11,977 nucleotides of DNA from Candidatus Aenigmatarchaeota archaeon (GTDB taxonomy: Archaea; Aenigmatarchaeota; Aenigmatarchaeia; QMZP01). The DNA is taken from contig JAWCLA010000023.1 of the NCBI GenBank assembly GCA_039091855.1, positions 1 through 11,977 of the forward strand. The letters are read 5' to 3'. The position numbers and the translations under genes are program-made. Positions 5,236-7,731 of this stretch are shown here, piece after piece; the first letter of the stretch is position 1; each line of letters opens with the position of its first letter. The notes beneath the pieces were generated by a model. It ran no database searches and had not been told where the DNA came from. It was given only the letters and a program-made list of their open reading frames with translations.

Positions 5236-7731
5236 TTACACAATGAATTCCTTCCAGTTGACCTTTCCTGAATCAGACTTGGACGGGTCAACGCCATCCT
5301 CCCCTGCAACAAACTGTATAATCTGGTTGTTTGAGTTTCTCACGCTCCTGTCGTGAGCTACCTTAAGATCCTGCAAGGCGTTTATCAGCCTTCTTTGCAT
5401 GTATCCGGACTTCCTTGTCCTGAGCGACTTGTCCATAAGCCCTTCCCTGCCATTCATTATGTTCCAGAAAAGCTCGAAAGGGTTCAGCCCGTCCTTGAAA
5501 CCCCTTGAAACAAAACCGTGGGACATTGGTGAAAGGTCGCCCGGGACTATGTGAGGAAGCGTCCTGTTTAGGTATCCTCTCTTTATCCTCTTGCCGAGTA
5601 TTGTTTCCTGCCCGACAACTGCAGCCATCTGCGTTGTGTTTATCATAGAGCCCTTTGCTCCGGATTTTGCCATAACTATTATGTCGCTTGCCTTAATGTG
5701 CTCTGAAACTATGTCACTCACCCTGCTGACGCCTGAGGCAAGGGCATTCATTATCTGTGCCTCAAGAGAAGCCTCTGCTGTCATGCCGGGAAGTATCTTC
5801 AATTCGTTCCTTCTGAACTTCTGTATGAGAAGGTTTGCCTCCCTTTCAGAGGTTTTAATTTCCTCTTGTATACTTTTCCTTATCTGTGGGTCAATGTCAA
5901 GGTCGGAAATTCCCATAGAGAATCCCCTTCGCATAATGAATGCTATTCCTAGTCTTCCGCATTTGTCTATGAAGTTCTTGACCTCTTCCTTGTCAGCATA
6001 AATACCGTCAATCTTGCTGATTATCTTTCCCTTGAAGGCGCCAACGCCCTTTGCATCTATCGCGCCTGTTTTAACCTCACCGTCTTTTATTATAACCCAG
6101 GCGTCATGCTCGCATGCCGACCTCTTGCATTCCTCGCAATTCTCGCAACAGTTTGCCTTGTATTCTATGTTAAGGCCCTTTGGAAGCAGAAGGGAAAAAA
6201 CCTCCTTTCCCGTGAATTCCTCCTTTTCAGGAAGCTCTATGTCTATTCCTGCGTCTGCAAAGAGCTGACTAGCATCTTCTCTTGATAAAACCACGCCTTT
6301 CCTTGTGAGAAGGAATATTCCTGAAATCTGGTCGAGGTCAAGCCCTACAACAGGCATACCTGATCTCGGCGACCTTATGTTGTGCTTCACGTCCATAAGC
6401 ATTTCTGCCTCCACTCTTGCTTCCTCTGTCTGCATTGCGTGAAGGTTCATTTCATCCCCGTCGAAATCTGCATTGTAAGGAGGACACACGCTTGGGTTAA
6501 GCCTGAAAGTCTTGTAGGGCATAACCTTTACCCTGTGAGCCATCATAGAAACCCTGTGAAGTGAAGGTTGCCTGTTGAAAAGAACTATATCACCATCCAT
6601 TATTTGTCTGTCAGCAATCCAGTCTTTTGTTATGTTTTCTGCGATGTCCTTCCTGTTTTCCTCTGTTATCTTTATCCTTCTACCGTCAGGTCTAAGGACA
6701 TAATTAACCTTTCCTGCCCTTATCATCTCCTTTACCTGTTTTAGATTAACGTTTGTGACATACTCCGGTATTGTGAGCTCCTGCGCGATCGTTTCAGGAA
6801 CTCCCACCTCATTTATCGATATTCTCGGGTCAGGGGATATCACCGTCCTTGCGGAGAAGTTTACCCTCTTTCCGAGAAGGTTTCCCCTTATTCTGCCTTC
6901 CTTTGCCTTCAGGCGCTGTATTATCCCCTTTAGCGGCCTTCCTGACCTGTGCCTTGCAAGTGGGACCCCTGTCAACTCGTTGTCAAAATAGGTCGAGATG
7001 TGATACTGCACAAGTTCCCACAGGTCGTTAAGTATGAATTCTGGTGCTCCTATGTCTATGTTTTCCTTAAGGGATTGGTTTATTCTTACAAGGTCAACAA
7101 GCTTGTGAGTTAGGTCGTCCTCTGACCTTTCACCACCCTCTAATGTGATTGATGGTCTCATAGTGACAGGAGGTATGGGAAACAAGGTCAGTATGAGCCA
7201 TTCCGGCCTTCCCCCCTTTATTCCTATTGCCTTAAGGTCGCTGTCAGGAATCTTCTCGAACCTCTCCCTTATTTCAAGAGGGGAAAGCTCGCTCTTGTCT
7301 TCATAGAAGATGTAAGGCTTGACGAAATTGATTTTTTTCTGCTGTGCATTGCAGTGCGGACACTTGGAAGGTTGCGTAGAGGAGGGTTTCTTTTTTGAAG
7401 GGGTTTTCACGTTTACTGTCATTATCCTGCCGCACTTCCTGCAGGTGTGCCTGAGAAGGTAGTAAATAACCTTTGTGTAAAGCACGTGAATAACAGGCTT
7501 TGCAAGCTCAAGGTAACCGAAATGCCCGGGACACTCCCCTATCCCACCCCCACAAGTCCTGCAGTGGAATCCTGGGTCTATAACACCCATTCGAAGGTCC
7601 ATAACACCACCTTCAACAGGATAGCCATCTGCGTCATAAAGGTCTGACGTAACTACTCTTACCCTTGCCATGTTCTTTATCATCTCTGGCGACATAAGGC
7701 TGAACTCTATTGACTTTATTCTTGATGACAT
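5236..7731 (-). CDS. rpoA1: DNA-directed RNA polymerase subunit A' (Rpo1N)
   Basis: Catalytic NADFDGD (6474-6454), CRTC...CPGHFG Zn site, [28 protein letters not shown] and bridge helix ...[23 protein letters not shown] at 7744-7739, inside the end of rpoB. Confidence 0.98.
   Translation of the reverse strand: [831 protein letters not shown]

What the first reader, a model, noticed from the sequence alone, without database searches (positions are those of the whole stretch)
5365..5481. Strongly remodelled RNAP bridge helix
Seen and checked at codon level: [32 protein letters not shown]. Recalled consensus: [22 protein letters not shown](A/S)xSGYMQRRL. The N-terminal hinge HAMGG becomes NIMNG, DTAV becomes DKSL, and the small residue after the active-site-facing Thr (equivalent to yeast Rpb1 A832) becomes Arg. 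Knowledge (recalled): bulky substitutions there impair M. jannaschii RNAP, and Nanoarchaeum equitans RNAP is known for unusual bridge-helix changes. Inference: a lineage-specific active-centre variant with altered translocation, pausing or fidelity.
Basis: partly seen in the sequence, partly recalled or inferred. Interest (0 to 1): 0.7.

Follow-up and report, generated by a model that had tools for sequence, protein, structure and literature searches.

The report
Lineage-wide variant RNA polymerase bridge helix
The only RNA polymerase of this small DPANN archaeon has a real, strictly conserved variant of the bridge helix at the catalytic centre, inherited by its whole lineage and matched by changes in neighbouring parts of the enzyme; its effect on transcription is untested.

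Summary
Window 5236-7731 (-) encodes Rpo1N/A' (831 aa), and residues 751-782 read [32 protein letters not shown]. It is the genome's only copy and not a sequencing error. The same core occurs in all 30 genomes sampled from its order, which NCBI labels Aenigmatarchaeota, and in 119 of 119 closest database proteins. Synonymous sites there are scrambled, so the residues are under purifying selection.

A shared core runs through the whole phylum: DKSL, no GG hinge, and Arg or Lys after the active-site Thr (55 of 55 genomes sampled). A sister lineage carries MDSSLKT[RK]V. In contrast, 60 of 77 named archaeal loci, and 127 of 143 archaeal and eukaryotic cluster representatives, have Ala or Ser at that site.

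The change is not confined to the bridge helix. The Rpo2 Link domain, the Rpo2 beta-D II loop and an A' funnel-helix residue (Q709E) are altered in step.

Q817K, which matches K768 here, is superactive, while substitutions at G809 are harmful. Nanoarchaeum has Pro at the same site; that case is published and its enzyme is active.

Verdict: a new variant of a known kind. The mechanism is inferred only.

The parts
5236..7731 (-). rpo1N (A') gene, 831 aa, largest RNAP subunit N-terminal part; single copy in the genome
   Evidence: ORF and translation. Pfam Rpb1 domains 1-5. PDB Rpo1N chains at E about 1e-270. One match in the own genome.
5386..5481 (-). Bridge helix, residues 751-782: [32 protein letters not shown]
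   Evidence: Conserved in 30 of 30 order loci and 119 of 119 closest proteins.
5452..5466 (-). N-terminal hinge W756 N757 I758 M759 N760. These align with M. jannaschii F805(?)-H806-A807-M808-G809 and with yeast F815-H816-A817-M818-G819.
   Evidence: Among 143 representatives: F129/W1, H129/N2, A97/I1, M114, G82/A31/S22/N1. In the order: W 30/30, N 28/30 (D 2), N760 30/30.
5422..5430 (-). Central K768 S769 L770, replacing the canonical T-A-V (M. jannaschii Q817-A818-V819)
   Evidence: Representatives: T123/K14, A121/S8, V93/L9. Phylum outside the order: K 22/25, S 22/25, L 24/25.
5410..5418 (-). T772 R773 K774: the conserved active-site Thr, then Arg in place of the small template-facing residue (M. 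jannaschii A822, yeast A832), then Lys (M. jannaschii Q823)
   Evidence: Position 773 in representatives: A68 S59 P5 K4 R2 Q2 V1 E1 I1, and both R are from the own phylum. Order R 30/30. Other families R 21, K 4 of 25.
5605..5607 (-). E709 in the A' helix before the F-loop (canonical VGQQ becomes VGQE)
   Evidence: Q in 88% of 143 representatives and E in 119 of 119 closest proteins. Fixed Q709E against labelled non-DPANN archaea. Shared with most other phylum members shown and with the MDSSL lineage, but not the RTP lineage.
3982..5217 (-). rpo1C (A'') gene, 411 aa, with a lysine-rich tail
4966..5037 (-). Trigger loop, A'' residues 61-84: TQMTMRTYHFAGTAGIQVTLGLPR. The catalytic His69 is kept. 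Fixed differences are F68Y, Y70F and V73T.
7736..11032 (-). rpo2 (B) gene, unsplit, 1098 aa
9044..9112 (-). Rpo2 Link domain, residues 641-663: PYPEYNRGDRINYGAKMVGQSIG, against canonical PEHNxSPRNT[YM]GAxMxKQ. The invariant Arg (R650) is kept. Changes are H645Y, P649D and K659G, with a new K656.
9653..9694 (-). Rpo2 beta-D II loop, residues 447-460: ETPEGSAIGLRKHL, against canonical ETPEGPNCGLVKN[LF]
   Evidence: Thirty phylum loci carry the variant and 5 named canonical genomes do not.
11101..11343 (-). rpoH (Rpo5), upstream gene of the rpoH-B-A'-A'' cluster
   Evidence: Pfam RNA_pol_Rpb5_C, E 1e-34.

Best explanation
This is the functional, sole Rpo1N of an Aenigmatarchaeota-type DPANN archaeon. 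Its bridge helix belongs to an inherited, co-evolved alternative layout of the RNAP active centre.

Shown:
- The residues the M. jannaschii work found indispensable are kept: M759, G761, R762, E763, D767, T772, G776, Y777, R780 and R781.
- Nine of the 25 positions aligned with M. jannaschii H806-R830 differ: H806N, A807I, G809N, V815M, Q817K, A818S, V819L, A822R and Q823K. All nine are under purifying selection.
- A core of these changes (DKSL, no GG hinge, Arg or Lys after Thr) is phylum-wide, and part of it extends to a sister lineage.
- Elements that the literature places against the bridge helix have changed in the same lineages: the Rpo2 Link domain, the Rpo2 beta-D II loop, and an A' funnel-helix residue just upstream of the F-loop.

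Inferred:
- R773 points at the template strand, as A822 and A832 do in M. jannaschii and yeast, and makes an extra contact with the template at +1.
- K768 and K774 lie on the face turned away from the catalytic centre. Together with the beta-D II Arg they make the centre more basic.
- Asn760 stands in for the first hinge Gly, because Asn is the residue most able to adopt Gly-like backbone angles.
- The net result is a working enzyme whose nucleotide-addition kinetics are tuned by the whole module, not by any single residue.
For: - Identity and single copy.
- Fixation in the order: 30 of 30 order loci, 30 of 30 in a second sample, and 119 of 119 closest proteins.
- Purifying selection: nucleotide identity 0.80 against amino-acid identity 0.98 over 45 DNA versions.
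- Phylum extent: a match in 196 of 201 genomes. In 25 genomes from 24 other families, position 773 is R in 21 and K in 4, position 768 is K in 22, and none has GG at 760-761.
- Rarity elsewhere: A or S in 127 of 143 representatives and in 60 of 77 named loci. In 2008, 171 bridge-helix sequences showed only A, G, S and P at this site (supplement S9).
- Matched changes: A' Q709E, F756W, H757N, V766M, T768K and A769S; B H645Y, P649D and K659G.
- Phylogeny: in a tree built with the bridge helix masked, carriers form one clade with support 0.995, and the order scores 1.0.
- Literature, passages read: A822 faces the template and tolerates bulky residues, while T821 does not. [quoted passage not shown] N. 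equitans RNAP, with Pro at the same site, is active in vitro.
Against: - No structure, model or assay shows what R773, K768 or N760 contact. AlphaFold2 of A' alone gave pLDDT below 50 for residues 760-789, so nothing can be read from it.
- Weinzierl 2010 reports that any substitution of G809 severely lowers M. jannaschii activity. On that evidence N760 alone would be harmful, and its compensation is assumed, not shown.
- The values for A822R, G809N and Q823K sit in figures I could not read.
- Co-occurrence of changes in one clade does not prove functional coupling, because related genomes share everything they inherit.
- The DPANN grouping in a FastTree tree with a midpoint root may be inflated by long-branch attraction.
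Confidence: 0.6

Rival explanations
1. Compensated, near-neutral drift. In small, fast-evolving DPANN genomes the active-centre shell wandered to another sequence optimum by pairs of compensating changes. The present enzyme behaves kinetically like a canonical archaeal RNAP, so the variant has no special functional meaning.
For: - Several DPANN lineages each carry a different residue at the same site: P in Woese-, Pace- and Nanoarchaeia-labelled loci, R or K here, and Q, E or V among representatives.
- M. jannaschii tolerates many residues at A822.
- N. equitans RNAP is reported to have specific activity in the expected range (Discussion).
- A' differs at only 17 of 252 otherwise conserved positions.
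Against: - The new state has been frozen across an order and largely across a phylum despite saturated synonymous change.
- The replaced positions cluster in elements that touch each other and are not spread evenly. Eight of the 17 A' changes lie at positions 709-769.
- Q817K alone raises activity in M. jannaschii, so some kinetic effect is likely.
Confidence: 0.3
2. Pocket remodelling to evade or bind a small molecule or factor. The changed N-terminal hinge residues (W756, N757, N760), E709 and the Link residues line the pocket that in RNA polymerase II binds alpha-amanitin. The lineage may have reshaped it against a natural inhibitor or for a lineage-specific regulator.
For: A review passage states that amanitin contacts the Pol II bridge-helix residues G819, G820 and E822 directly, and H816 and F815 indirectly (PMC11333700). 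Three of these five positions are replaced here. The involvement of the funnel helix and of Rpb2 Q763 in that pocket is my recollection, not a call.
Against: No inhibitor or factor is known for these archaea, and no candidate gene was found or sought. The changes extend well beyond this pocket, to R773, K774 and beta-D II.
Confidence: 0.05
3. Artefact: a sequencing or assembly error, a pseudogene, or a divergent extra paralogue beside a canonical gene.
For: The genome is a draft: 38 contigs, 84% complete.
Against: - The frame is intact and full length.
- The own genome gives one match, both to the protein and to Pfam PF04998.
- Of the 38 genomes with a match among own plus relatives, 37 give one match each; the exception, G010, has one gene in two pieces with internal stops.
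- The same residues are encoded by different codons in dozens of independent assemblies.
Confidence: 0.02

Closest known systems
Nanoarchaeum equitans RNAP and Woese-/Pacearchaeota relatives (Nottebaum & Weinzierl 2021, PMC8204694)
   Same: A DPANN lineage with radical substitutions at otherwise conserved active-centre positions, including the residue right after the active-site Thr of the bridge helix (neA' P810, aligned two residues after mjA' R820). It is the sole RNAP and is active in vitro. The RTP[KR] form is seen here in loci labelled Woesearchaeota, Pacearchaeota and Nanoarchaeia.
   Different: Here the residue is Arg, a good helix former, and not the helix-breaking Pro. The DKSL centre, the NG hinge, W756 and N757 are not the N. 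equitans pattern. The Link motif RGDR and A' GQE are absent from the RTP-type loci seen. That paper does not hold the word 'Aenigma' (search).
Engineered M. jannaschii bridge-helix mutants (Tan et al. 2008, PMC2776397; Weinzierl 2010, PMC2988716)
   Same: The same 25 positions were mutated one by one. Q817K (K768 here) is superactive. A822 tolerates bulky side chains. G809 and G810 form the N-terminal hinge.
   Different: Those are single or double changes in a canonical background. Here nine natural changes coexist with altered Link and beta-D II partners. G809 substitutions were harmful there, yet Asn is fixed here.
Canonical archaeal Rpo1N (Pyrococcus 8CRO, Thermococcus 4QIW, Saccharolobus 2PMZ/2WAQ) and eukaryotic Rpb1
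   Same: The domain order is the same and the [10 protein letters not shown] metal-A loop is present. The bridge helix and flank align to Pyrococcus without gaps, the protein is split after the bridge helix, and matches reach E about 1e-270.
   Different: [16 protein letters not shown] becomes [17 protein letters not shown].
Second basic-bridge-helix lineage (loci L098, L100, L116, L139; labelled Nanohalarchaeota, Aenigmatarchaeota or 'archaeon')
   Same: Arg or Lys after the Thr (KT[RK]V), M-D-x-S-L in the centre, Link RGDR (seen in L098 only), and A' GQE. It is sister to the Aenigmatarchaeota clade in the masked tree, with support 0.995.
   Different: MKG hinge, DSSL instead of DKSL, Val instead of Lys or His at position 774, and a much more divergent trigger loop (TQTTLRSYH.EG).

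Membership tests
Archaeal RNAP subunit Rpo1N (A') | Rpb1 domains 1-5 in order, ending shortly after the bridge helix, with rpo1C (A'') as the next gene | tested here: met
   Pfam PF04997, PF00623, PF04983, PF05000 and the first 66 positions of PF04998. A'' at 3982-5217 carries the rest of PF04998.
Archaeal RNAP subunit Rpo1N (A') | Catalytic metal-A loop NADFDGD | tested here: met
   N420-D426 is NADFDGD.
Archaeal RNAP subunit Rpo1N (A') | Close full-length similarity to solved archaeal Rpo1N chains | tested here: met
   8cro_A at E 5.7e-270 over residues 4-824; also 4qiw_A, 2pmz_A and 2waq_A.
Canonical bridge helix (archaeal / Pol II consensus) | Gly-Gly N-terminal hinge (M. jannaschii G809-G810) | tested here: not met
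   N760-G761. First position in representatives: G82, A31, S22, T4, N1, K1, Q1, C1.
Canonical bridge helix (archaeal / Pol II consensus) | Small residue (Ala or Ser) after the active-site Thr (M. jannaschii A822, yeast A832) | tested here: not met
   R773. A or S in 127 of 143 representatives and 60 of 77 named loci.
Canonical bridge helix (archaeal / Pol II consensus) | Invariant T821, G825, Y826, R829 and R830 (M. jannaschii numbering), reported as essential | tested here: met
   T772, G776, Y777, R780 and R781 are present and are 30 of 30 and 25 of 25 in the phylum samples. Their essential role is taken from Tan 2008.
N. equitans-type bridge helix | Pro at the position after the active-site Thr | tested here: not met
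   Arg here. Pro is seen in L109, L160 and L163 and in 5 representatives.
Functional (catalytically active) RNAP | Measured transcription activity | not testable with these tools
   Inferred only, from the single copy, the intact frame and purifying selection.

The most novel reading that the evidence does not exclude
Aenigmatarchaeota and a sister DPANN lineage run transcription with a distinct, more basic active-centre architecture. An Arg or Lys side chain replaces the small residue that almost all cellular RNAPs point at the template base. The Gly-Gly hinge is gone. The Link and beta-D II loops of Rpo2 have been rebuilt to match. Together these would give a mechanistically different nucleotide-addition cycle (altered translocation equilibrium, pausing or fidelity, possibly a naturally 'superactive' enzyme), not merely a cosmetic variant.
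Probability: 0.25. Interest if true: 0.7.

Novelty: new variant of a known kind. Interest (0 to 1): 0.5.

Why it matters
The bridge helix is one of the most conserved moving parts of all cellular RNA polymerases. Models of translocation lean on its Gly-Gly hinge and on the small residue that faces the template.

A whole phylum has swapped these residues for Asn and Arg or Lys, has kept them frozen since, and has changed the neighbouring Link and beta-D II loops at the same time. That is a natural experiment on which features are truly required and which can be traded within a co-evolving module.

It extends the published Nanoarchaeum case to a second, chemically different solution: a basic helix former instead of a helix breaker. 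It also names a concrete set of residues to move into the existing M. jannaschii or T. kodakarensis recombinant systems.

Tried and rejected
- **AlphaFold2 of A' alone**, with a 70-sequence alignment. Mean pLDDT was 76, but residues 760-789 scored below 50 and the helix was broken into three pieces. That is expected for a helix that spans the cleft between subunits. It is uninformative, so I ran no fold search on it.
- **The listing of cluster members**, to name the cluster representatives. Names came instead from the record titles of the search for related loci, so the 150 representatives remain unnamed.
- **Supplement PDFs of Tan 2008**. These gave the natural residue sets but not the bar heights, so the activities of A822R and Q823K in M. 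jannaschii are not known to me. The same holds for G809N in the heat map of Weinzierl 2010.
- **The trigger-loop 'TMR' as a bacterial-like oddity.** I rejected this idea: QMTMRTFH is the ordinary form in the named Euryarchaeota-type loci.
- **Earlier scan notes**. None concerns this variant.
- **Complex prediction.** Not used. It takes no nucleic acids and would only restate a textbook subunit pair.
- **Literature searches.** 'bridge helix' with 'DPANN' or 'Aenigma', and 'DPANN' with 'trigger loop', returned five distinct papers. For one (PMC7289017) I read the passages holding the terms, and they do not describe it. For the other four I saw only titles and abstracts in the listing, and none points to it.
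Full report
**What is there.**
The window carries an rpoH - rpo2 (B, unsplit, 1098 aa) - rpo1N (A', 831 aa) - rpo1C (A'', 411 aa) cluster on the minus strand. A' has Pfam Rpb1 domains 1-5 and matches solved Pyrococcus, Thermococcus and Saccharolobus Rpo1N chains at E about 1e-270. Pyrococcus reads [28 protein letters not shown] at the aligned positions.

The residue names in the M. jannaschii papers run H806 A807 M808 G809 G810 R811 E812 G813 L814 V815 D816 Q817 A818 V819 R820 T821 A822 Q823 S824 G825 Y826 M827 Q828 R829 R830. 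They line up one-to-one with N757-R781 here. Nine of the 25 differ: H806N, A807I, G809N, V815M, Q817K, A818S, V819L, A822R and Q823K. The yeast numbers (T831, A832) follow from the ends of the PDB match (query 818 = chain 877) together with my recollection of the yeast sequence.

**Is it real and more than chance?**
The own assembly (689 kb, 38 contigs, 84% complete) gives one match to the protein and one to Pfam PF04998.

- Among 41 genomes (own plus relatives), 38 had a match. All 30 loci fetched, from six families of one order, carry [12 protein letters not shown][R, once I][10 protein letters not shown] preceded by W-N (twice W-D).
- In the large protein collection, 6902 proteins matched and the best 120 were listed. 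All 119 besides the query keep W756, N760, K768, S769, L770, R771, T772, R773 and K774.
- Over 45 distinct DNA versions of the 28-codon segment, 22 codons never change amino acid. Mean nucleotide identity is 0.80 against amino-acid identity 0.98. R773 is spelt four ways, and S769 uses both serine codon families.

That is purifying selection on the variant state. It is not error or decay.

**How far does it reach?**
In a sample of 201 genomes of the phylum (one class), 196 had a match. I read the bridge helix in 30 genomes of the order and in 25 genomes from 24 other families. Outside the order:

| Position(s) | Residues in the 25 genomes |
|---|---|
| 773 | R 21, K 4 |
| 768 | K 22, T 3 |
| 769-770 | S-L in nearly all |
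| 760-761 | never G-G (N, S, A or H, then G or S) |
| 757 | D 18, N 6, L 1 |
| 774 | mostly H |
| 779 | E in 25 of 25 |

So DKSL, the lost GG hinge and the basic residue after Thr are phylum-wide. W756 (also once outside the order, 1 of 25), K774 and Q779 mark the order; N757 also occurs in 6 of the 25 outside genomes.

Source names and record titles call these genomes Aenigmarchaeota or Aenigmatarchaeota.

**How unusual is it?**
Of the best 150 cluster representatives from 1.84 billion proteins, which are archaeal and eukaryotic Rpb1-type, 143 aligned over the bridge helix. Counts:

| Position | Residue counts in the 143 representatives |
|---|---|
| 773 | A68 S59 P5 K4 R2 Q2 V1 E1 I1 (both R belong to this phylum) |
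| 768 | T123 K14 |
| 757 | H129 N2 |
| 756 | F129 W1 |
| 760 | G82 A31 S22 T4 N1 K1 Q1 C1 |

Eighty named loci came from one-genome-per-species archaea, and 77 had data for this region:

- 60 have T-[A/S]. This includes all 55 labelled non-DPANN loci with data: Methano-, Thermoplasma-, Archaeoglobus, Halobacteriota, Hadarchaeota, Hydrothermarchaeota, Methanosuratincola and others.
- 9 are the Aenigmatarchaeota type.
- 4 form a second lineage with MKGREG.MDSSLKT[RK]VSGY.
- 3 (labelled Woesearchaeota, Pacearchaeota, Nanoarchaeia) have RTP[KR].
- 1 (Norongarragalinales) has NPAK.

A FastTree LG+gamma tree was built from 110 A' sequences with residues 751-783 masked and a midpoint root. It groups the order (support 1.0), all DKSL/TR carriers (0.83), and these plus the MDSSL lineage (0.995). 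I grouped the tips by the feature and then asked whether they form clades. One tip without bridge-helix data (L089) was placed by its label. Long-branch attraction among DPANN cannot be excluded.

**It is not only the bridge helix.**
I compared 57 labelled non-DPANN loci with 29 loci of the order. Both groups were chosen by label, not by the feature.

- A' is fixed to another residue at 17 of 252 positions that are at least 95% conserved. Eight of these lie at 709-769: Q709E, R712L, Y745F, F756W, H757N, V766M, T768K and A769S.
- In the C-terminal 500 residues of Rpo2, 12 of 156 such positions differ. H645Y, P649D and K659G fall in the Link domain.
- The Link domain reads PEYNRGDRINYGAKMVGQ against canonical PEHNxSPRNT[YM]GAxMxKQ. 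The invariant Arg is kept, and the Lys is moved three residues.
- The Link motif RGDR and A' GQE are shared by other phylum members and by the MDSSL lineage, but not by the RTP-type loci.
- The beta-D II loop reads ETPEG[SA][STA]IGLRK[HY] in 30 of 30 phylum loci, against ETPEGPNCGLVKN in 5 named canonical genomes.
- The trigger loop keeps its catalytic His. Its QMTMR form is ordinary for Euryarchaeota-type archaea. Its fixed differences are F68Y, Y70F and V73T.

**What the literature says (passages read).**
Tan et al. 2008 (PMC2776397):
- T821, G825, Y826 and R829 are essential.
- A822 faces the template strand, yet it tolerates N, Q, F and Y with modest loss, and some substitutions raise activity.
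- The supplements list the natural residues in 171 sequences. At A822 they are A, G, S and P only. At Q817 they are A, V, I, K, Q, S and T. At Q823 they include K and R.

Weinzierl 2010 (PMC2988716):
- G809 and G810 form the N-terminal hinge, and any other residue there severely lowers activity.
- Q817-K is superactive.

Nottebaum & Weinzierl 2021 (PMC8204694):
- N. equitans has Pro two residues after the Arg that aligns with mjA' R820, which is the same site.
- Woese- and Pacearchaeota share that pattern.
- The reconstituted enzyme is active and is stimulated by fluoride.

Of the five papers the searches returned, none that I could judge describes the Aenigmatarchaeota form: I read passages of one and only the listings of the other four.

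**Most likely working.**
Shown: this is the sole, intact and selected catalytic subunit. Its essential bridge-helix residues are kept, and a set of neighbouring positions has moved together.

Inferred:
- R773 contacts the template strand at +1, where Ala normally leaves room.
- K768, K774 and the beta-D II Arg raise the positive charge around the hybrid end and the NTP site.
- Asn760 preserves hinge flexibility.
- The Link and funnel-helix changes (D649, E709) compensate.

From the M. jannaschii data, the individual changes would pull in different directions: Q817K up, G809X down, A822X mild. The net behaviour cannot be predicted and has to be measured. The main rival is compensated, near-neutral drift. 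AlphaFold2 of A' alone was uninformative for this helix.

**Verdict.**
This is a second, chemically different natural solution at a site already known to vary in Nanoarchaeota. It is fixed across a phylum and embedded in a co-varying module.

Noticed in passing
L083 (family f18), L084 (f28), L095, and protein P0125; not in the window: In some families of the same phylum the trigger loop reads QMTMRSYT[LM]AS, so the near-universal catalytic His (yeast H1085, E. coli beta' H936, both recalled) is Thr. The window's own A'' keeps His69.
   Followed up: no
L006, L007, L011, L014, L020, L022, L041, L043, L048, L049, L050 (A'' genes of relatives in the same order): The trigger loop is interrupted right after TQM by an insert that begins S[LV]D in the six loci read in full, and carries LAGLIDADG-like blocks (GWIFGAYLAEGN, GYFDGDGNVS). 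This is most likely an intein with a homing endonuclease. The insert runs past the 1500-bp flanks, so its end was not seen. The window's own gene lacks it.
   Followed up: partly
open frames; protein P0123: RNAP subunit gene architecture is very fluid in this phylum. P0123 (1428 aa) is the C-terminal half of Rpo2 fused to A' in one frame (Pfam). Open frames of about 1430-1500 aa and about 1830-1935 aa around the bridge helix occur in many genomes. P0125 (same phylum) and P0126 (MDSSL-type lineage) are A'+A'' fusions.
   Followed up: partly
window 7736-11032 (-) versus relatives: Rpo2 is unsplit here (1098 aa) and in some relatives of the same family and order (open frames 1089-1115 aa). In others of the same family and order the frame around the same site is only about 310-550 aa (the 311-aa frame runs into a contig end), which suggests that split and unsplit rpo2 alternate within one order.
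   Followed up: no
window 3982-4110 (-), C-terminal about 45 residues of A'': A'' ends in a lysine- and glutamate-rich low-complexity tail (..EEPKEEEKPKEEKPKKAKKPAKKKEKEKPRKKAAKAKKSKK). The Pyrococcus and Thermococcus chains aligned have no counterpart to it.
   Followed up: no
window 9986-9988 and 9983-9985 (-), Rpo2 residues 1016-1017: The conserved GEMERD motif of Rpo2 reads GEMEQQ in the seven order loci shown (own plus six) (R1016Q, D1017Q). Other phylum members and the other DPANN lineages seen have GEMEKD, and two Micrarchaeota-type loci keep GEMERD.
   Followed up: no
window 2971-3375 (+): There is a 134-aa ORF with a respiratory complex I 30-kDa subunit (NuoC-like) domain (Pfam E 3e-29), next to ribosomal protein genes in a 0.69-Mb DPANN genome.
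   Followed up: no
window 7731-7736: rpo2 ends at 7736 and rpo1N starts at 7731, so the two genes are only 4 nt apart. That is the kind of junction from which the fused forms seen in relatives could arise.
   Followed up: no
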